Assembly: GCA_964352735.1 (NCBI GenBank)
Contig: CAYGTC010000007.1
Span: 22,379-86,378 of the forward strand
Length of the DNA: 64,000 nucleotides
From: an uncultured Alcanivoracaceae bacterium
GTDB taxonomy: Bacteria > Pseudomonadota > Gammaproteobacteria > Xanthomonadales > Marinicellaceae
Direction of reading: 5' to 3'
A program made the translations under genes and the position numbers. The notes under the pieces are model-generated. The model did not search any database, was not told the origin of the DNA, and worked only from the letters and a program-made list of their open reading frames with translations. Positions 5,191 to 16,753 of this stretch are shown here, piece after piece (position 1 is the stretch's first letter; each line of letters opens with the position of its first letter).

Positions 5191-5492
5191 AATTCAATGT
5201 CGACATTATAAAGAATTTTACTCAACTGAGGTATCAAATTAACGTTTCTTTACAATTTATTCAATATATTTTTTGTGACGCATATCACAAATAAAAATAA
5301 ATAAATATAAGTTATTGTAATGCAATCTATTTATTGTATTTTGATTTTTACACTTAATTTAAATATCCCTAATAATCTAACCCTTGGTCATCCGTGAATT
5401 TATTTGGTGGCTATCAATCGCATTCTGAGGAAGATCAAACTCATCAATCTCATGCAGTGCTAAACTTTCCAACGAGCACAGCGATCAAACTG

Positions 5493-5532
5493 AAAGTAAC
5501 AAAGTAACAAAGTAACAAAGTAACAAAGTAAC
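5493..5532. repeat. perfect tandem octamer repeat (AAAGTAAC) x5
   Basis: Five uninterrupted copies were read directly. They lie in the 419-bp gap between the nlpD stop and the kinase operon start. Confidence 0.95.
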
Positions 5533-5609
5533 ATTTTATATAAAAACTCTTAAAATAGCACCCGTAATTGAAAAGAGAGTAAAAACCTGAAATAGCTCAA
5601 TAAATAAAG

Positions 5610-6551
5610 CTATTTTTTAGGCAAATATTTCAAAGGGTTAACGGGTTGGCCATTTTTTCTGATTTCAAAATGCAGTAACGATTTACCATCATTGCCCTTA
5701 CCAGATTTAGCAATATGTTGGCCTTGTTTAACTGTTTGTCCTTCTTTGACCAATCTTTGAGAATTATGTGCATAGGCACTGAGAAGATTATCGGTGTGTT
5801 TGATAATGATCAACTCTCCATAACCTCTTAGACCGTCACCACTGTAGACCACCGTTCCATTATTGGTAGCCACTACAGTTGTGCCTTGACTGGCACTAAT
5901 ATCGATGCCTTTCCTAGACACATCTGCAGCAGAAAAGGTACTGATAACACGTCCATTAAGAGGCCACACCCATTTTGAACTGGCAGGTTTGACTGGCTGA
6001 GTTACTGGTTTTTTTACAATTGGCCGTGATTGAGGCTTATTCACAGGTTTAGTCACTGGTTTTTTTGCCACTGGCTTTGTAACATTAGGCTTTTTTGAGA
6101 CTTGAATAGGTTTCTTTACCGCAGGCTTTTTATTGTAGTTTTGCTTGGGTATTTTTGCTGGAGGTGTTGTTTTTCTAACAACAGTACCTATGGGTTTCGG
6201 TTTGATGCGAACAGGATGTGATCGGGCTTGCGCTACTTGGTTCCTTTGACGGCCTTTTGATTTTTTTAATCGCAGTTTTTGCCCAGGATAAATGTTATAG
6301 GGTGACTTTATTCGATTAATGCTGGCCAATTTTTTATAATCAATGCTGTATTTAAAACCCAAAGCATAAAGCGTATCACCTTTTCTAACAACCACCTCAT
6401 CAGGCACAAATCGTTTGGTCATTCTCTTTTGATGAACCCGATTGTATTTTCGAGGCTTGACTTCCTTAACAGGTGCAGGTGAATGAGGAGAGCAAGACGT
6501 CATAAGAACAAAGCTCAATAATATCAAACTGTGTAAAACAGCAGACCTCAT
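5610..6551 (-). CDS. nlpD: murein hydrolase activator NlpD (LysM + degenerate M23 peptidase lipoprotein)
   Basis: Lipoprotein-type signal (LMTSC), a LysM block (VVRKGDTLYALGFKYSIDYKKLASINRI) and a K/P-rich linker. The M23 domain has degenerate metal ligands (KGIDI, LLHFEI), as in E. coli NlpD. It follows surE-pcm. Confidence 0.85.
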   Translation of the reverse strand: MRSAVLHSLILLSFVLMTSCSPHSPAPVKEVKPRKYNRVHQKRMTKRFVPDEVVVRKGDTLYALGFKYSIDYKKLASINRIKSPYNIYPGQKLRLKKSKGRQRNQVAQARSHPVRIKPKPIGTVVRKTTPPAKIPKQNYNKKPAVKKPIQVSKKPNVTKPVAKKPVTKPVNKPQSRPIVKKPVTQPVKPASSKWVWPLNGRVISTFSAADVSRKGIDISASQGTTVVATNNGTVVYSGDGLRGYGELIIIKHTDNLLSAYAHNSQRLVKEGQTVKQGQHIAKSGKGNDGKSLLHFEIRKNGQPVNPLKYLPKK

Positions 6552-8311: not shown

Positions 8312-10549
8312 ATGTCGAAAATTCTTAATTTTGAAATCATGCCCATGGGCGAATACGCTGAAAAGGCTTATTTGGATTATTCCATGTATGTTGTTTTGGA
8401 CCGCGCCTTACCTTTTGTAGGTGATGGACTTAAGCCAGTACAAAGACGCATCGTTTATGCGATGAGCGAACTGGGCTTATCCGCCAAATCAAAACACAAG
8501 AAATCTGCACGCACCATTGGAGATGTGATTGGTAAATATCATCCACATGGAGATTCTGCCAGTTATGAAGCCATGGTATTGATGGCGCAGCCTTTTTCTT
8601 ATCGTTATCCTTTGGTAGATGGTCAAGGTAACTTCGGTTCACCAGATGACCCTAAGTCATTTGCAGCCATGCGTTACACCGAATCGAGACTGACGCCCTA
8701 TTCTAAAAGCCTGTTACAGGAAGTCCCTTTGGGCACCATTGATTGGCAACCCAATTTTGATGGTACTTTACAAGAACCCGTTTTTTTACCTGCGCGCTTA
8801 CCGAATATTTTACTCAATGGCGGTTCAGGTATCGCCGTCGGTATGGCCACAGATATACCTCCACATAATTTACGTGAGGTTTCAGCTGCATTGTTTCATT
8901 TATTAGATCATCCCGATGCCAGCATAGAAGACTTGTGTCAGCATATACAAGGCCCTGATTATCCAACATATGCCGAAATCATTACACCCAGAAAAGACAT
9001 TATTGACATTTATACTTCTGGCAAAGGCAGCATTAGAATGCGCTGCGTACATGAACGAGAGGATAAAAACATTGTCATTACAGCGCTGCCACACCAAGCC
9101 AGTCCTGCAAAAATATTAGAACAAATTGCCACGCAGATGCGCACCAAAAAATTACCGATGGTTGAAGATTTAAGGGACGAATCAGATCATGAAAATCCTT
9201 TTAGGCTGGTGATCATAACACGCTCTAATCGCATTGACTATGATGGACTAATGAGTCATTTGTATGCAACAACCGACTTGGAAAAGTCTTTTAGAGTCAA
9301 TTTAAATTTAATAGGCTTGGATAAGCGACCTCAAGTTAAAAATCTCAAGCTCATTTTACAAGAGTGGCTAAGCTTTAGAACTGAAACCGTAAGGCGCAGA
9401 TTGCAATATAGATTAGATAAGGTTGATGCCCGTTTGCATATTTTGCAAGGCTTGTTGATTGCTTATCTTGATTTAGATGAAGTGATAAGAATCATACGCG
9501 AAGAAGAACATCCTAAAGAAACCTTAATTGCCACTTTTAAATTATCTGAAATTCAAGCCGAAGCCATTTTAGAAACAAAGCTTCGTAACCTTGCTCGCCT
9601 CGAAGAAATGAAAATCAAAACTGAGCAAATGGAATTGATGGCAGAAAAAGATGAAATCACCGGCATATTGATGTCACGTGCCAAGTTAAAAAAACTGATC
9701 AAAACTGAAATCATGGAAGACACTGAACTGTATGGTGATGCCAGAAGAAGTATGATTGTAGATCGTGCAGCGGCTAAAGTATTTGATGAAACCAGTCTAG
9801 TACCCAATGAGCCAAACACCATCATCATGTCAAAAGCCGGTTGGGTTCGCGCAGCAAAAGGCCATGATATTGACACCCAAAAATTAAGCTTTAAATCCGG
9901 TGATGAATATGCCCACCATGCGAGAGGACGCAGCAATCTTAATGCAGTATTCTTGACCAATAACGGTCGCAGCTTCTCTCTACTTTCGCACACCCTACCC
10001 TCCGCAAGAGGGCAAGGTGAAGCGTTAACCACGAAGTTTAAATTACCTGAGGACAGTCAATTTGTCGCGACAGTCTGCGAACAAGCCGATACCATTTTAC
10101 TAATGGCAAGCTCTGCTGGTTATGGGTTCATTACAGAAACTGAAAACCTTTATTCCAAAGTTAAAGCAGGCAAACAATGTATTTCTGTACCCAAAGGTTT
10201 TACCACCATACCACCCAAAGTTATCAACAATATAGATGAGGACTTTATCATTTGTGTAACCAGTGCCGGATATCTTTTGGCCTTTCCCGTGCGAGAATTA
10301 CCTCATTTAACCAAAGGTAAAGGCAATAAAATGATCAACATACCACCAAAGTTGCTCAAAGCTGGCGATGAAAAAATGATTGATATGATTGTGGTCAGTG
10401 AAAACCAATCCTTTTTAGTGTGGGCAGGTGCCAGATACATCAGAATAAAATGGAAAGATCTACAAAACTTTTTGGGATATCGTGCCAAACGTGGTAGCCT
10501 ATTACCTAAAGGGTTTAGAAATGTTGATCGACTGGAAAAAGAAACTTAA
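8312..10549 (+). CDS. parC: DNA topoisomerase IV subunit A
   Basis: 745 aa, near colinear with E. coli ParC as I recall it ([32 protein letters not shown]..., [10 protein letters not shown] catalytic Tyr region). It is shorter than GyrA. Confidence 0.93.
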
Positions 10550-11363
10550 GTTCATATTGATACCGATATCAGGTCAATGTCTGGCATTGCCTGATATCCC
10601 CAGCCTACAAAATTGTCCTGACAACATTTTTCATGCCAGTTTTCAAAATGATTCCCAACCCAGCAATGGTGCTGGTGGCGCAACAGGCAGCTTGACCAGG
10701 ATCATCAATTTTCCTGGAGGATCCAGTCTCTATTTTTTATACGTGCCTTCAACTTATGATCCTACAATACCCATCCCATTATTGATCACCTATCATGGTA
10801 CAGCAGGTGCTGGCAATGCCAGCCAACAAGCACAAGCGATCAGAAATTTTTGGCTACAAACCGCAGAGGACAATAACTTTATTGTATTGGCACAAACCGG
10901 CAGCAGTGCCAATGGCTCATGGACTGTTGGACTGGACTTTCCATTGATTAGGGATGAAATTCTGGATGAAGTTTTTGCCTTTTATAATATTGAGACAACA
11001 AGGACTTATGGTCATGGATTTTCAGCAGGCGGCCATGTCATGCACACCATGATGCTGTTTTATAATAACAATCGATTTGCCGCCTACACAGTCAGTGCTG
11101 GTGCTTTAGAACGAGATGCGATTCAGGAAGACCCCAATGTCCCAGCCAACAACAGTGTTGTACCCGTTTATATTTCGCACGGGCAGTTTGACAATATTGT
11201 GCCCATATCATTGGCCAATGACGATTATGCAAAATTTATACAAGCAGGTTGGCAAGACGGCAGAACGATATGGATAGATACTTTTAATGGAGGTCATACC
11301 ATTGAAGCAACTTTTCCTCAAAAAAGTTGGGATCAATTGTGTCGATTTACCACAGTTGACTAA
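10521..11363 (+). CDS. alpha/beta-fold esterase, PHB-depolymerase/LpqC-like family
   Basis: [27 protein letters not shown] followed by [10 protein letters not shown], with nucleophile elbow GHGFSAGG. The start is taken at ATG 10521. ATG 10482 would extend the overlap with parC further. Confidence 0.6.
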
Positions 11364-11435: not shown

Positions 11436-12059
11436 TTATTCAACAGAAAAATTCATCAATTCCACTGGCAATAAACCCAGCGTTTTGACACCCAAATCAT
11501 CAAACGTGTCTTGTGGGAATGAAGACCATTCAATTGAAGGATCATAGGGATCATTGACATTGGTATCGCCGCCACAGGTTAATGCATTTCTTCTCAACGT
11601 TTCATTTTGCGTGCCTACACCACCAGCATTCCACTCTGAGCCTGGGTCACCCAGTAGATCTCCTATACTGTCTATTGTAAGCGCACCATTGCGCAATTCA
11701 ATGGTATCATCTCCATTAAAAGTCATGACAGTTGACGAGGTTAGCTGATCTGCCAAAGCAAGGAGAGAGGCATTTGCTGAATTGTTGGCAACAACAAATA
11801 CATCGTTATCTGCTATCGAGCCACTGAGTGAAAGAGAAGACGCACCACCAGTACCGCCATTAGTGTTTCTGATCAATGTGTAACTGGTCAAATCAACAAG
11901 TGCACCTGTTCCATTGTAAATTTCTATGGCTTTATTGTTACCACTGCCCTCAACATACTCAGAAATGATTAAATCCTCCTGTAAAAGAGGACACCCACCT
12001 GCTGCGACAGTAAATGATGAGATCAATGCAAAACCAGTAACCAATATTTTGTGTGTCAT
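11436..12059 (-). CDS. secreted lamin-tail-domain (LTD) protein, paralogue 1
   Basis: 207 aa with a signal peptide (LVTGFALISSFTVAA). The LTD signature matches the N-terminus of ExeM/NucH-type extracellular nucleases (LIISEYVEGSGNNKAIEIYNGTGALVDLTSY...DVFVVAN...FNGDDTIEL...DSIGDLLGDPGSEW...NETLRR). It ends in LPVELMNFSVE. Confidence 0.75.
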   Translation of the reverse strand: MTHKILVTGFALISSFTVAAGGCPLLQEDLIISEYVEGSGNNKAIEIYNGTGALVDLTSYTLIRNTNGGTGGASSLSLSGSIADNDVFVVANNSANASLLALADQLTSSTVMTFNGDDTIELRNGALTIDSIGDLLGDPGSEWNAGGVGTQNETLRRNALTCGGDTNVNDPYDPSIEWSSFPQDTFDDLGVKTLGLLPVELMNFSVE

Positions 12060-12233: not shown

Positions 12234-12887
12234 TTATTCAACAGAAAAATTTTCTAACTCAACGGGCAATTCTGTACCACCAGCACCACCATCAGCACCA
12301 GGTGTAGCAACCATTGTCGCATTAGCATTGCTACCGGAAATTATAGTCGTTTCCCAAAAACCTGTTGGAGAAGGGTCATTTGGTTTTGGAGATGGCGCAT
12401 TTATTCCAGTAGGAGTTGTTACTCCCCAAGAACCATCATTCGGTAATTGACTGGCTACTCTATGCGCCACTACATTTGAAGCAAAAGTATCAGTACCACC
12501 AATGCGATCAACTCCAAAACTATCAACAACAGATGTACCATTAAAAAGGTCATATTTGTCATTGCCATTATGGTTAATCGAGGTACTGACTTGATCCACA
12601 GTGCCAGCGCCGAATAACGTGTTAACATCTGTCGGACCAACCACATAAAAACCACCAGCAGGTATGACTCCGGTCAAAGTCACGGTTGTCGGAGTCGTTC
12701 CCCCATTACTGTAACGACGCAATTGCCACCCATCAACACTAAAATCAACAGCAGCACCACTGTTATGTAATTCAACAAACTTTGCAATACCGCCATTGGA
12801 CTCAAAAACTTCAGATATAAGTACATCCGCAGACACCGACGCCGACAATAAAACCGACAAACTGGCCAAAATTATTTTTTTATTCAT
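12234..12887 (-). CDS. secreted lamin-tail-domain (LTD) protein, paralogue 2
   Basis: 217 aa with signal peptide (ASLSVLLSASVSA/DV) and a divergent LTD (VLISEVFESNGGIAKFVELHNSGAAVDFSVDGWQL...GFYVV...NGNDKYDLF...DSFG). It ends in LPVELENFSVE. Confidence 0.7.
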   Translation of the reverse strand: MNKKIILASLSVLLSASVSADVLISEVFESNGGIAKFVELHNSGAAVDFSVDGWQLRRYSNGGTTPTTVTLTGVIPAGGFYVVGPTDVNTLFGAGTVDQVSTSINHNGNDKYDLFNGTSVVDSFGVDRIGGTDTFASNVVAHRVASQLPNDGSWGVTTPTGINAPSPKPNDPSPTGFWETTIISGSNANATMVATPGADGGAGGTELPVELENFSVE

Positions 12888-13228: not shown

Positions 13229-16200
13229 ATGAATAAAAAATTCATCACTTTATGCATTATAAGATTCAAGCCTATCGTTTTAATTTTACTGTTTTACTGC
13301 CTCACAGCACATGCATGGTGGGACAGTGACTGGAATCATCGTGTCAACATAACAGTTGACAACACATCAGCCACCGCTGTAACCAGCTACGAAGTTAAAC
13401 TCACCATTGATGCCAGCAATGCGCCAAACTTCGATTGGAGCAACAACGGAAATGATATTCGCTTTATTGACAGCGATGACATGACAATGTTAGCTCACTT
13501 TATTGAGTCATACGATGGCATTGCAGAAATCGCCACAGTTTGGGTGAACGTACCTAATATAGCTGCAATGGACTCTGCCAATTTATTTTTTTATTATGAC
13601 AACAGCACAGCTACTAATACGACTGATGCCAGTGCAACATTCTCCCAAAGCGGCCTCAAATATCATACACGCAACAGCACATTAGACCCAGACAGTTTGG
13701 CCACAGCTCAGTCTACTTTTGATGGCATAGCCGATGGCACAACAGGATTTGGTTGCAGCAATGTCACTGCATTTACCTCTTTAGAAAACAGCGAACTTTA
13801 TGGCAGCAATAACGCCATGGCTTTGACCTCTGAGGTATTCTTTAACATGCCATCTGGCGGCACATTACAACTCAGATTAGGAGGCGATTTTGGTGATGGA
13901 GGTGGATTATATGTAGACAATACCGTTATAGAAGAGTTATGGGGACCTGTTGGCACAGGTGATGACATGTGGTGGGCCAACACTTGGGCCAGCTTTACAA
14001 CTTCACAAGAAATACTTTATGGATCAATTGTTCTATCTGCGGGTTACCATGTCCTCAGACACATTGGTTTTGAGCAATGTTGTGATGGTGATGCTACATT
14101 GGAATACCGCATCGGCACCACTGGCTCATGGCTGGCGTTCAATACCAGCAATTTATCATTGGTCAGCCCTCAATGCCCTGTTAGCACTGCTGCAAGTTTT
14201 GCCGCCGAAGAAACATTCGATGCAATCATCGGCTATGTTTCATCACAATTTCACGATCAACATGTGCTGATAGAATGGCAATCGAACTCTGAAAGTTTTA
14301 ATGTGGGATTTAATATATGGATACAAGATCACACCGGCAAATGGCTTAAATCTAACGCAGAACTGATCCCATCAGAAAAAATTAACAGCCTCACACCTTT
14401 ACAATACCATTACCGTGTTGACAATATGTCTATTGAACATTTTCAAATCAGTTCAATCAATATCCATGGAAAAGAGGAATTTTATCGCACTTATGAAGTA
14501 AAAAAATCATATGGAAGGAAAACCACAACACAATCCATTGATTGGTCGATAGTCAATCAACAAAATAACACTAAGATTAAGCAAAGAAATCTGCTCAAAA
14601 ATTCACAGCTCACCCAGATCGATCAACAGGATCTTGTCGCCAATATTAAAACCAGCAAAACCGGCATAACTAGGGTTTATTTTGACCAGTTGATGGCCGC
14701 TGGCTTGGATATCACTCAGTTTGATGACAATAATTTAGCCGTTAGCTTTAAAGGTCGTGCAATCGCGCGTAATGTACATATTGATCATAATTCTGAAAAC
14801 AGTTACGTGGAATTCTTCGCCCAAACTCTGAATAATATTGATGCCTTATACCTCTCACAAGCCATTTACCAAATTTCAAATCAGCCAGATTTAGTAAAAC
14901 ACAGCAAAAACAACCGAATTCATAGACCTCTCACATTAACACAATCATATAACACAACAGATACCCGAGATAATAATGTTGTGTATAATTTTGCCAGCAG
15001 CAGCTCAGATCCTTGGTTTGAAAAATTATTAGCCAATTTTGGAAATGGGGCCACTCATCGCATTGAATTGACAAAACCAATTGATTTAGCGCTAAATGAT
15101 AACATCAACATAACGTTAAAAATGATGGGATTAACAGATTATCCTGGTAATGCTGCGATTAATCCAGACCATCACCTTAAAGTCATTCTCAATAATAACA
15201 CAGTCATATTTGATGGATTTGAAGATGGCATAGTTGATTGGCACATCAGCATACCTCTTACCAGCCAACAATTAGAGGATGGCGTCAATACATTAGATTT
15301 AACCTTGGTCAGTGATACTGGTTTTAGTGCTGATATGGTTTATTTTGACAAACTTGAGATCGATTATACAAAACCTCTGGCTAAAAATAATCAGCCGCTA
15401 TTATTCTCTACAGACCAAAAAAATACAGAATTTGAATTATCAGGCTTCATAGACAAAAATTTTATCGCCTATGCGCACAGCGCTTCAGGAGATTTGTTTG
15501 AACTGTACATTGATGACGAACCCTCAAATATCGATCGAATATTTATGGATCAATTTGAAATTCAGCTCACTCAACACCATTATGTTGATGCAATCAATGC
15601 CACTGGCAGTCACCAGTATTGGTTTTCTGATGCCGATACAGCACTAGCGGTTGATGAAATTCATATCACCAGCAAAGAAAAAATAACATTAGATAATAGC
15701 CATTACTTAATCATATCTGACACCAATTTTATCAATCACGATCTTGAACGCTTTAAAAATGCGAAGCAACAACAAGGACTTAAAACGTCCATTATCAGTT
15801 GGCAAGATATCATTGAAAAAAACGGAAATGGCTACGCTACCCCAGAAACTTTGACACGCTTTTTGAGTTCAACTTACCAGCATTTTCGCTTTACACATGT
15901 CTTGTTGGTTGGTGCTCAAACATATGATTACAATAATTACCTCGGGTTAAACACCGTCAATTTTATTCCAACGCATTATATGAAAACCAATGGGAACTTC
16001 CATTACACGCCGACTGATTTTCCATATACGGACATCAATAAGGATGGCTATCCAAATTTTGCACTGGGTCGCTGGCCAGTAAGAACAACACAAGAACTGA
16101 ACACCATTGTCAACAAAACCCTCACATGGCAACAACAACACCCATCAAATACCATCAATTCATTATTAATTGCTGAACAACAAGATCAAAACCTCATCAA

Positions 16201-16753
16201 TTTTGCCGAACAAGCTGACAGTGTTGCAAATACTTTACAGCTTGACGCTGATTTAACCCAAAAAGTATATGTGGATGATTACCTCGCTTCTTCCTCGGAT
16301 GATCCGATTGCTGAGGCAAAAAACGACTTAATCAACCACATCAATGGTGGCGTTGACTTGGTTATATTTGATGGCCATGGTAGCCCCACCACCTGGGCAT
16401 ATCAAAACTTATTCAATACACAGGATGTTGTGCAATTAACTAACATAAATCATCCATTTTTATTATCTCCATTGAGTTGTTATACCACATATTATGAAAA
16501 CCCCAGCACCAATACTTTAGCCCATCAAATGTTATTTTCAGGACAGAATGCTGCAGTAGCCATTCATGGCGCCATGGTATTAAGCCAATACTTATCCAAT
16601 CAAAACATGGCCACAACCACTTTGAAAGATATGATTGAGCGACAAAGCACCTTGGGAGAAGCCATAATGCGTGCTAAAATTGACTTATATCATGCCATTG
16701 ACGATAATATCCTCAACTGGAGTCTACTTGGTGATCCTGCAATTACGCTGTAA
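13229..16753 (+). CDS. large secreted multidomain protein: DUF2341 + PA14-like + beta-sandwich + C-terminal peptidase C25 (gingipain/PorU-like) domain
   Basis: 1174 aa with a signal peptide ending AHA. DUF2341 signature WWDSDWNHRVNITVDN...IRFID...VWVNVP...FFYYDN. PA14-like block LQLRLGGDFGDGGGLYVDNTVIEELWG. The C25 block runs from YLIISDTNF (about 15704) to LLGDPAITL, with GHG (His codon 16376-16378) and LSC (Cys codon 16478-16480). Confidence 0.75.
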   Translation: MNKKFITLCIIRFKPIVLILLFYCLTAHAWWDSDWNHRVNITVDNTSATAVTSYEVKLTIDASNAPNFDWSNNGNDIRFIDSDDMTMLAHFIESYDGIAEIATVWVNVPNIAAMDSANLFFYYDNSTATNTTDASATFSQSGLKYHTRNSTLDPDSLATAQSTFDGIADGTTGFGCSNVTAFTSLENSELYGSNNAMALTSEVFFNMPSGGTLQLRLGGDFGDGGGLYVDNTVIEELWGPVGTGDDMWWANTWASFTTSQEILYGSIVLSAGYHVLRHIGFEQCCDGDATLEYRIGTTGSWLAFNTSNLSLVSPQCPVSTAASFAAEETFDAIIGYVSSQFHDQHVLIEWQSNSESFNVGFNIWIQDHTGKWLKSNAELIPSEKINSLTPLQYHYRVDNMSIEHFQISSINIHGKEEFYRTYEVKKSYGRKTTTQSIDWSIVNQQNNTKIKQRNLLKNSQLTQIDQQDLVANIKTSKTGITRVYFDQLMAAGLDITQFDDNNLAVSFKGRAIARNVHIDHNSENSYVEFFAQTLNNIDALYLSQAIYQISNQPDLVKHSKNNRIHRPLTLTQSYNTTDTRDNNVVYNFASSSSDPWFEKLLANFGNGATHRIELTKPIDLALNDNINITLKMMGLTDYPGNAAINPDHHLKVILNNNTVIFDGFEDGIVDWHISIPLTSQQLEDGVNTLDLTLVSDTGFSADMVYFDKLEIDYTKPLAKNNQPLLFSTDQKNTEFELSGFIDKNFIAYAHSASGDLFELYIDDEPSNIDRIFMDQFEIQLTQHHYVDAINATGSHQYWFSDADTALAVDEIHITSKEKITLDNSHYLIISDTNFINHDLERFKNAKQQQGLKTSIISWQDIIEKNGNGYATPETLTRFLSSTYQHFRFTHVLLVGAQTYDYNNYLGLNTVNFIPTHYMKTNGNFHYTPTDFPYTDINKDGYPNFALGRWPVRTTQELNTIVNKTLTWQQQHPSNTINSLLIAEQQDQNLINFAEQADSVANTLQLDADLTQKVYVDDYLASSSDDPIAEAKNDLINHINGGVDLVIFDGHGSPTTWAYQNLFNTQDVVQLTNINHPFLLSPLSCYTTYYENPSTNTLAHQMLFSGQNAAVAIHGAMVLSQYLSNQNMATTTLKDMIERQSTLGEAIMRAKIDLYHAIDDNILNWSLLGDPAITL

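What the first reader, a model, noticed from the sequence alone, without database searches (positions are those of the whole stretch)
14207..14335. Internal segment of the 1174-aa protein mimics the LTD tails and continues into a beta-sandwich the LTD proteins lack
Residues ~327-369 read EETFDAIIGYVSSQFHDQHVLIEWQSNSESFNVGFNIWIQD. The opening ETFDAIIGYV has the same alternating pattern as VELENFSVE (acidic, hydrophobic, x, x, aromatic/aliphatic, x, hydrophobic). What follows fits a pattern I recall from unrelated bacterial surface proteins: PVEL.SF.A, a few residues, then V.L.W.T..E.N..GF.(I/V). That recollection is from memory and unverified. If it holds, the LTD proteins stop exactly after the first strand of this domain. 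This raises the idea of strand donation or complementation, or of tail docking onto the large protein.
Basis: inference. Interest (0 to 1): 0.6.

Follow-up and report, generated by a model that had tools for sequence, protein, structure and literature searches.

The report
Fused form of split sorting domain
The flagged segment is the start of a complete fibronectin-III-like domain that sits in front of a PorU-like protease. The short tails on the neighbouring proteins match that domain's first strand, and they probably plug into a separate small protein that lacks that strand, which points to an undescribed protein-sorting system.

Summary
The sequence is present as quoted, at residues 327-369 of the 1174-aa protein.

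- **The domain.** It opens an unannotated FN3-like beta-sandwich (about residues 330-430; AF2 pLDDT 82-89). The family has 979 representative clusters and almost always sits directly in front of a PorU-like C25 peptidase module.
- **The tail match.** The family's first strand has the consensus [L/T]PVTLSxFxS.
- **This protein's own strand A.** The domain is complete and needs no donated strand.
- **Where the tails track.** Orthologues of the 1174-aa protein occur in tail-less genomes. The tails instead co-occur with a 128-aa secreted FN3-like protein that lacks strand A (18 of 18 tail genomes against 15 of 233 without tails). That protein co-occurs with a PorU-like C25 that lacks the domain (32 of 33 genomes, often adjacent genes).

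Best reading: the window protein is the fused form of a split-domain sorting system. Tails probably complement the strand-less protein, not this one.

The scan reached the same split-domain reading before on other DNA (e1-772927, e1-1200569).

The parts
13229..16753 (+). 1174-aa secreted protein: signal peptide, DUF2341, CCXG-like domain, FN3-like domain, PorU-like C25 module
   Evidence: ORF. Pfam and NCBIfam matches. AF2 model. Best PDB fold match is PorU 6ZA2 (E 1.6e-25); sequence match to 6ZA2 has E 1.2e-10.
13445..13645 (+). DUF2341 domain (residues 73-139), part of the N-terminal 'cargo' region
   Evidence: PF10102, E 1.3e-15.
13658..14164 (+). CCXG-family-like domain (residues 144-312; motif CCDG)
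   Evidence: NF038118, 89.8 bits against a cut-off of 90. AF2 confidence here is low.
14216..14254 (+). Strand A of the FN3-like domain (residues 330-342, FDAIIGYVSSQFH). This is the tail-equivalent stretch in the family register, and it has drifted from the consensus.
   Evidence: Alignments. Column frequencies. PSSM score +1.5. DSSP strand 332-342.
14216..14518 (+). FN3-like beta-sandwich (about residues 330-430), complete; belongs to an unannotated domain family
   Evidence: No Pfam or NCBIfam hit at E<=1. 979 representative proteins match the profile. hmmsearch E 2.2e-30. AF2 strands at 332-342, 345-356, 358-366, 372-374, 391-398, 404-411, 416-423 and 427-429, pLDDT 82-89. hhalign to the FN3-fold small-protein family gives 97.4% probability.
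14207..14335 (+). The finding's own coordinates (residues 327-369): linker end, strand A, strand B (HVLIEWQSNSES) and strand C (NVGFNIWIQ)
14819..16750 (+). PorU-like region (residues 531-1174). It includes Peptidase_C25 at residues 826-1174 (window 15704-16750), with His1050 (16376-16378) and Cys1084 (16478-16480).
   Evidence: NF033707, E 1e-41, below cut-off. PF01364, E 2.2e-63. H1050 and C1084 are invariant in 19 homologues.
12234..12887 (-). 217-aa secreted LTD protein ending LPVELENFSVE (tail codons plus stop at 12234-12269)
11436..12059 (-). 207-aa secreted LTD protein ending LPVELMNFSVE (tail codons plus stop at 11436-11471)

Best explanation
Residues about 330-430 of the 1174-aa protein form a complete FN3-like beta-sandwich. 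It belongs to an unannotated family that links an N-terminal 'cargo' region to a PorU-like C25 cysteine peptidase module. The family's first strand ([L/T]PVTLSxFxS) is the same element as the PVELxxFx[VI][DE]-COOH tail. In this protein that strand has drifted but is still in place, so the protein does not need a donated strand.

The protein is best read as the fused form of a three-part system that the same genome also holds in split form:
1. Cargo proteins that end right after strand A. There are 12, including the two neighbouring LTD proteins.
2. A 128-aa secreted FN3-like protein that lacks strand A (own genome, contig C40:2011-2394). In relatives it is a lipoprotein.
3. A PorU-like C25 protein that lacks the FN3-like domain (own genome, contig C4:107856-110462).

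Inferred mechanism: the tail completes the strand-less FN3-like protein by beta-strand complementation. This brings the cargo to the PorU-like enzyme, which cleaves it or attaches it at the cell envelope. In the fused protein the same contacts are made within one chain.

Shown here: the domain, the homology and register, the three architectures, the co-occurrence and the gene adjacency. Inferred: the physical complementation, the enzyme's action on the cargo, and where the cargo ends up.
For: **Domain and register**
- The profile of the segment hits 979 representatives. They begin at profile positions 5-9 with [L/T]PV[T/S]L and mostly lie 700-790 aa before the C-terminus, which is the length of the C25 module.
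- The AF2 model gives a complete sandwich with its own strand A. The whole protein's best fold match is PorU 6ZA2.
- The tails match strand A in register and end at profile position 17.

**The small protein lacks strand A**
- hmmsearch aligns it only from profile position 20.
- hhalign of the two families gives 97.4% probability and E 1.5e-11, starting at strand B.
- AF2 (pLDDT 82) shows no strand before residue 39.
- Its fold matches FN3 domains.
- A paralogue matches Pfam fn3 only over model positions 14-80 of 84.
- So the tail (positions 7-17) and the small protein (position 20 onward) together tile one domain.

**Co-occurrence in 251 genomes of the order**
- The small protein is in 33 genomes and the domain-less PorU-like C25 in 32 of those same 33. 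They are adjacent in G112, G204, G191 (twice), G047 and G031, and within 4-20 kb in about 20 more.
- Strict tails occur in 18 of 33 system-positive genomes and 0 of 218 system-negative ones. The relaxed pattern gives 23 of 33 against 3 of 218. The reversed-pattern control gives 0 hits (strict) and 8 singletons (relaxed).
- Within the window's genus, all 5 tail-bearing genomes have the domain-less PorU-like C25 and none of the 10 tail-less genomes do.

**Gene pairs**
- Tail-protein genes sit directly next to genes encoding a strand-A-less FN3 domain in G059 (four pairs), G035, G076, G175, G070 and G092.

**All three architectures in this one genome**
- Fused: the window protein on C7, plus C18, C74, C92 and C1.
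- Split after the domain: on C12, a 3275-aa ORF ends in the domain and is followed by a 745-aa PorU-like C25 with its own signal peptide.
- Split after strand A.
Against: - No complex was predicted or measured. Complementation is inferred from complementary profile coverage and from genomic association.
- The small protein has a conserved polar N-terminal segment (CGDQSAxPKEQR) with an invariant Cys. This may occupy the strand-A position itself.
- Ten system-positive genomes show no tail, even with the relaxed pattern.
- In this genome the small protein, the domain-less C25 and most tail genes lie on different contigs.
- Genomes in the sample are related, so the Fisher values overstate the association.
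- The two LTD genes do sit beside the 1174-aa gene here and in L001. My reading leaves that adjacency unexplained.
Confidence: 0.6

Rival explanations
1. The LTD tails dock onto the 1174-aa protein itself, either by displacing or swapping its weakened first strand in the FN3-like domain, or by entering its C25 active site. On this view the big protein is the dedicated processing enzyme for its two neighbours.
For: - The genes are adjacent in the window and in the 63%-identical locus L001, where the LTD protein also ends LPVELINFSVD.
- This protein's strand A has lost the Pro and Val that are 98% and 90% conserved in the family. That could make the strand easier to displace.
- N-terminal strand swapping is documented for FN3 scaffolds (PDB 4M6A, listed).
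- The catalytic dyad is intact.
Against: - AF2 places the protein's own strand A in the sheet with pLDDT 82-89.
- The 48-50% orthologues carry the same drifted strand in genomes with no tails. Their neighbour there is an unrelated protein with an IPTL-CTERM-like end.
- Ten of the 12 tail genes in this genome are elsewhere.
- Tail presence tracks a different C25 protein and the strand-less FN3 protein.
Confidence: 0.12
2. The tail is a linear recognition or cleavage signal read directly by the PorU-like C25 peptidase, with no strand complementation. It resembles strand A only because it descends from a truncated C-terminal FN3-like sorting domain. The small FN3-like protein would then have another role, such as an anchor or an adaptor for the enzyme.
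For: - Tails co-occur with the domain-less PorU-like C25 as tightly as with the small protein.
- The full domain occurs at the extreme C-terminus of cargo-like proteins elsewhere: P0131, P0125, P0112, and the 3275-aa ORF on C12 of this genome. Truncation is therefore a plausible origin.
- PorU in T9SS removes a C-terminal beta-sandwich signal (PMC4560394, PMC4804311, listed).
Against: - This reading does not explain why the partner protein is the same domain minus that strand.
- It does not explain why other strand-less FN3 domains are encoded right next to tail-protein genes that have no C25 gene between them.
Confidence: 0.2
3. Chance resemblance. The tail and the domain's first strand are unrelated short amphipathic strands, and the internal segment is an ordinary Ig-like linker domain.
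For: The motif is short. In this protein the direct similarity is weak (PSSM +1.5).
Against: - The PSSM ranking puts all 11 full-length tails among the top 14 of 5,260 C-termini.
- The reversed-pattern control gives 0 hits in 251 genomes.
- Tails co-occur strictly with the strand-less homologue of the same domain.
Confidence: 0.03

Closest known systems
PorU, the type IX secretion sortase of Porphyromonas gingivalis (PDB 6ZA2; NCBIfam NF033707), acting on C-terminal beta-sandwich signal domains
   Same: It is the best fold match for the whole protein (E 1.6e-25) and the best PDB sequence match (E 1.2e-10). It shares the C25 His/Cys dyad. In both cases a C25 enzyme is linked to cargo that carries a C-terminal beta-sandwich-derived signal.
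   Different: - The NF033707 score of 142.6 is far below the 420 cut-off.
- The host is a gammaproteobacterium, outside the Bacteroidota.
- The protein has no C-terminal domain of its own and ends with the C25 module.
- Here the 'signal' is an FN3-like domain in front of the enzyme (fused form), or only its first strand (tail form).
Type V pilus assembly in Bacteroidota (FimA/Mfa): lipoprotein precursors, C25 gingipain cleavage, C-terminal donor-strand exchange (PMC4789730, PMC13655056)
   Same: The ingredients are similar: a C25-family protease, a lipoprotein-type subunit with an open groove, and a C-terminal beta-strand donated in trans.
   Different: In type V pili the groove is opened when the protease removes an N-terminal strand, and the subunits polymerise. 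Here the acceptor is encoded without the strand, the folds are unrelated (FN3-like against pilin), and nothing suggests polymerisation.
Chaperone-usher pilus donor-strand complementation
   Same: An Ig-like fold is encoded one strand short and is completed by a strand from another protein.
   Different: There the missing strand is the C-terminal G strand and the donor is an N-terminal extension. The system uses a chaperone and an usher and has no C25 enzyme.
Fibronectin type III domain (Pfam PF00041)
   Same: The AF2 model of the segment is a beta-sandwich of eight strand segments. Its small strand-less homologue matches FN3 structures and, in one paralogue, Pfam fn3 positions 14-80.
   Different: The window segment has no Pfam fn3 hit at E<=1. 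The family has its own signature (PVTLSxFxS ... W.T.SE..N.GFN) and a fixed position in front of C25 modules.

Membership tests
Peptidase family C25 (PF01364) | Profile match above Pfam's gathering score | tested here: met
   215.2 bits against a cut-off of 23, residues 826-1174, full model length.
Peptidase family C25 (PF01364) | Catalytic His-Cys dyad | tested here: met
   H1050 (GHGSP) and C1084 (SCYTT) are invariant across 19 homologues.
T9SS sortase PorU (NF033707) | Score above the curated equivalog cut-off | tested here: not met
   142.6 bits against a cut-off of 420. Only model positions 97-732 of 1095 are matched.
T9SS sortase PorU (NF033707) | PorU-like fold | tested here: met
   Foldseek top hit 6ZA2_B, E 1.6e-25, 826 aligned columns.
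T9SS sortase PorU (NF033707) | Own retained C-terminal T9SS domain, and a T9SS in the genome | tested here: not met
   The protein ends with the C25 module (LLGDPAITL, Pfam match runs to residue 1174). No CTD hit appeared in Pfam or NCBIfam. Whether other T9SS core genes are present was not searched.
Fibronectin type III (PF00041) | Profile match | tested here: not met
   No fn3 hit for the 1174-aa protein at E<=1.
Fibronectin type III (PF00041) | Seven-strand FN3-type sandwich | tested here: inconclusive
   The AF2 model shows a sandwich of eight strand segments at pLDDT 82-89. The homologous small protein (hhalign 97.4%) matches FN3 structures with probability about 1 but weak E-values (5.8e-3 and weaker). 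The window domain was not fold-searched on its own.
Donor-strand complementation acceptor (as in pilus subunits) | Acceptor fold encoded one strand short | tested here: not met
   For the 1174-aa protein, its own strand A is predicted at 332-342. For the separate 128-aa protein the feature is met by prediction.
Donor-strand complementation acceptor (as in pilus subunits) | Physical insertion of the donor strand | not testable with these tools
   No multimer prediction is offered, and chimeric sequences are not accepted by structure prediction.
CCXG family PEP-CTERM protein (NF038118) | Score above cut-off, and a PEP-CTERM end | tested here: not met
   89.8 bits against 90, for residues 144-312 only. 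The match is an internal domain, with no PEP-CTERM at the end of the protein.

The most novel reading that the evidence does not exclude
Many Proteobacteria (here an uncultured marine 'Lysobacterales' lineage, plus Tahibacter, Dokdonella and relatives) may run an undescribed protein-sorting system built on a split FN3-like domain. Cargo would carry only the first strand as a 10-11-residue C-terminal tag. A small secreted protein or lipoprotein would carry the rest of the domain and capture the tag by strand complementation. A PorU-like C25 transpeptidase would then process or anchor the cargo. The 1174-aa protein and its paralogues would be natural single-chain versions, with cargo, domain and enzyme in one polypeptide, and they may process themselves at the same junction.
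Probability: 0.45. Interest if true: 0.8.

Novelty: new variant of a known kind. Interest (0 to 1): 0.62.

Why it matters
C-terminal sorting signals and their enzymes (sortase, exosortase, rhombosortase, PorU) decide what sits on a bacterial surface. A tag that is literally one strand of a domain, with the rest encoded elsewhere, would be a new recognition principle for protein sorting. It would also extend PorU-like enzymes beyond the Bacteroidota.

The window protein matters because it shows the three parts joined in one chain, in the order the split model predicts. That gives independent 'gene fusion' support for the model. It also offers a simple construct for structural and autoprocessing tests.

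The domain family (979 representative clusters) and the small-protein family currently have no Pfam or NCBIfam model.

Tried and rejected
- **Strict regex for an internal copy of the domain.** It found only the window protein in the genome. This was misleading: an HMM later found five more C25-linked copies and the strand-less small protein.
- **Word-indexed homologue search.** It found only two relatives. The exhaustive profile search was needed.
- **The 1174-aa protein as the tails' dedicated enzyme.** I first considered this and rejected it after the phylogenetic profiles.
- **Tails within 10 kb of 26 related C25 loci (Arenicella and others).** None found except in L001. The strict pattern gives 0 hits in those genomes.
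- **Neighbour of the orthologues as an LTD protein with a swapped signal.** It is not. It is a P_proprotein-domain protein with a sub-threshold IPTL-CTERM.
- **Literature searches.** I searched for a described PorU-like or tail system in Proteobacteria and for C25 in Xanthomonadales, and found nothing relevant.
- **Model coordinates.** They are not exposed, so I could not check whether the strand-A site on the small protein is open or covered.
Full report
**1. What is at the coordinates**

Window 14207-14335 (+) encodes residues 327-369 of a 1174-aa protein (13229-16753), with the letters exactly as quoted.

The protein has these parts:
- a signal peptide;
- DUF2341 (residues 73-139);
- a CCXG-like domain (144-312; 89.8 bits against a cut-off of 90);
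- a stretch at about 323-440 with no Pfam or NCBIfam match;
- a PorU-like region (531-1174; NF033707 E 1e-41 but far below cut-off), which contains a full Peptidase_C25 match (826-1174, E 2.2e-63).

His1050 and Cys1084 are invariant in 19 homologues.

Two LTD proteins are encoded divergently upstream, at 11436-12059 and 12234-12887 (both on the minus strand). They end LPVELMNFSVE and LPVELENFSVE.

**2. The segment starts a real, unannotated domain family**

- The word-indexed search found only two relatives, at 63% and 32% identity.
- A scan of genome contigs found 26 loci, mostly in Arenicella and in 'Lysobacterales' MAGs. Most align from about residue 322-350 to the end.
- A profile of residues 323-440 was searched against 1.84 billion representatives. 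It hit 979 proteins at E<=1e-3 and 208 at E<=1e-10.
- In nearly all of these the match begins at profile positions 5-9 and lies 700-790 residues before the C-terminus. So this domain is the fixed N-terminal neighbour of a PorU-like C25 module.
- Column frequencies for the first strand: L49/T31, P98, V90, T70/S19, L65/I22, S51, x, F68, x, S59. Then come W93, T98, E100, N87, G98 and F95.
- Free-standing and repeated copies exist, for example P0129 and P0130, and P0094 grades into classical FN3 repeats.

**3. Structure**

An AF2 model was built on a 19-sequence alignment (mean pLDDT 76, pTM 0.69).
- Residues 330-430 have pLDDT 82-89.
- Strands fall at 332-342, 345-356, 358-366, 372-374, 391-398, 404-411, 416-423 and 427-429.
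- The domain is therefore a complete sandwich, and its first strand is AIIGYVSSQFH.
- The whole model's best PDB match is PorU (6ZA2, E 1.6e-25, 826 columns), followed by the gingipains. By sequence, 6ZA2 is also the best hit.

**4. Does the segment mimic the tails?**

At family level, yes.
- A PSSM was made only from strand A of 150 representatives. It was applied to the last 11 residues of all 5,260 ORFs of at least 100 aa in the genome.
- All 11 full-length tail proteins rank in the top 14, at +2.5 to +11.7 against a mean of -28 and sd of 8.5. The C-terminus falls at profile position 17.

For this particular protein, only weakly.
- In the family register the tail lies over FDAIIGYVSSQ (residues 330-340). 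Pro is replaced by Asp and Val by Ala, and the score is +1.5.
- The 32%-identical homologue has LPVNLDHFTSQ, which scores +21.8.
- The registers beginning at E328 or T329 score -30 to -36.

LTD homologues at 40-53% identity almost all keep the tail, and none continues into the domain.

**5. The tail is a genome-wide tag**

- Twelve ORFs in this genome end PVEL..F.[VI][ED]-stop. They are unrelated proteins with signal peptides, and one is a 56-aa fragment.
- The corresponding DNA pattern occurs in 18 of 251 genomes of the order. The reversed-pattern control gives zero hits.
- A relaxed pattern (PVxLxxFx[VI][DE]-stop) raises the counts: G033 22, G035 14, G112 12, G059 10. It reveals variants such as PVTLQSFSVE and PVSLQSFSVD, which are even closer to the domain consensus.

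**6. The tails do not track the 1174-aa protein**

- Its 48-50% orthologues (G003, G007, G009, G012; L003) lie in genomes with no tails.
- Where the strand could be read (L003, and representative P0008) they have a similarly drifted strand, FDVTIAFINS.
- Their neighbouring gene encodes a P_proprotein-domain protein with a sub-threshold IPTL-CTERM end.
- Paralogues with the domain plus C25 occur in 13 of 14 genomes of the genus, with or without tails.

**7. What the tails do track**

First, a different C25 protein.
- It lies on own-genome contig C4:107856-110462 and is 864 aa.
- It is closer to PorU (NF033707, 226 bits) and lacks the FN3-like domain altogether.
- It is present in all 5 tail-bearing genomes of the genus and in none of the 10 tail-less ones.
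- In the order sample it is in 17 of 18 tail genomes against 15 of 233 others.
- It is often within 2-12 kb of a tail gene (G191, G072, G010, G048, and G000 contig C4).

Second, a 128-aa secreted protein on own-genome contig C40:2011-2394. An HMM of the domain run over all ORFs of the genome found the six C25-linked copies and also this protein, which matches only from profile position 20.
- It belongs to a family annotated only as 'hypothetical' or 'lipoprotein' in Tahibacter, Dokdonella and relatives, with no Pfam domain.
- Its conserved core starts CGDQSAxPKEQRLANTPKW, after a signal peptide or after a lipobox plus an Ala/Pro linker.
- hhalign between the two families gives 97.4% probability and E 1.5e-11, aligned from strand B onward.
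- AF2 (pLDDT 82) shows no strand before residue 39, and the fold matches FN3 domains.
- In the order sample it occurs in 33 genomes. Those include all 32 with the domain-less C25, and the two genes are frequently adjacent. They also include all 18 with strict tails.

Third, gene pairs in several genomes. Tail-protein genes there are immediately followed by genes whose products end in, or consist of, a strand-A-less FN3 domain: four pairs in G059, plus G035, G076, G175, G070 and G092. One of these products matches Pfam fn3 only at positions 14-80 of 84.

**8. Synthesis**

The tail covers profile positions 7-17 and the small protein covers positions 20 onward. Together they tile one domain.

This genome shows three architectures of the same parts:
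- fused (cargo, domain and C25 in one chain): the window protein, plus C18, C74, C92 and C1;
- split after the domain: on C12, a 3275-aa ORF ends in the domain and is followed by a 745-aa PorU-like C25 with its own signal peptide;
- split after strand A: tails, small protein and domain-less C25.

The window protein is thus a natural fusion that supports a physical link between tail, strand-less FN3 protein and PorU-like enzyme.

The most likely mechanism is beta-strand complementation of the small protein by the tail, followed by PorU-like processing or anchoring. That step is inferred, not shown.

The main rivals:
- Direct reading of the tail by the enzyme remains possible.
- Docking on the window protein is disfavoured by the complete domain and by the phylogenetic profiles. 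The adjacency of the LTD genes remains unexplained under my reading.

**9. Comparison with known systems and with the scan**

The closest systems are:
- T9SS PorU acting on C-terminal beta-sandwich signals;
- type V pilus assembly, which combines a C25 protease, lipoprotein subunits and a C-terminal donor strand (PMC4789730, PMC13655056);
- chaperone-usher complementation.

The window protein fails PorU equivalog membership on score and on its lack of a C-terminal T9SS domain.

I found no paper describing this system.

After I had reached this reading, the scan's notes showed that earlier agents came to the same split-domain and PorU-like interpretation in other genomes (e1-772927, e1-1200569). 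They had also flagged the tail on this window (e1-3957348). What this report adds:
- the fused architecture as supporting evidence;
- the size of the domain family;
- the correction of the register and of the acceptor.

Noticed in passing
own genome, contig C4:76350-77235 (outside the window): A 251-aa ORF (76350-77105) is followed, in another frame, by a 56-aa ORF that ends ...ATPVELINFTVE (77065-77235). This looks like a frameshifted paralogue of the neighbouring 296-aa tail protein (75372-76262).
   Followed up: partly
L030:5214-5936, L031:5244-5966, L032:5383-6132, L003:8973-9695: In tail-less relatives, the slot beside the orthologue of the 1174-aa gene holds a 240-249-aa P_proprotein-domain protein. 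It ends VPSLSFYG, then a TM helix, then RQKRR, which is a sub-threshold IPTL-CTERM. So the slot carries a surface protein with a different C-terminal sorting signal.
   Followed up: partly
own genome, contig C4:70000-113000; L049 (G010 C41): A gene cluster is conserved around the domain-less PorU-like C25. By eye it includes a tail protein of the '...GGQGFHGISLND...NAIFRVQGNV' family, large secreted or lipoproteins, and a roughly 1030-aa multi-pass membrane protein. Only the C25 protein and one tail protein from the cluster were run against family libraries; the tail protein had no match.
   Followed up: no
genomes G015, G129, G192, G030, G031, G047, G078, G094, G120, G150: These ten genomes have both the small strand-less FN3 protein and the domain-less PorU-like C25. 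They show no tail even with the relaxed pattern, so their tags may have diverged further.
   Followed up: no
P0131 (1098 aa), P0125 (319 aa), P0112 (210 aa): In some metagenomic proteins with DUF7507 or DUF11 repeats, the complete FN3-like domain sits at the extreme C-terminus with 4-37 residues left after it. This would fit a C-terminal sorting domain.
   Followed up: partly
window 13658-14164: Residues 144-312 match the CCXG family PEP-CTERM protein model at 89.8 bits against a cut-off of 90, as an internal domain. AF2 confidence there is low (pLDDT 26-59).
   Followed up: no
L050 (G072 C31) 8981-11359; L049 (G010 C41) 5293-6102: Proteins with IPTL-CTERM-like or PEP-CTERM-like ends (hydrophobic helix plus a basic cluster) are encoded right beside the domain-less PorU-like C25 gene.
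   Followed up: no
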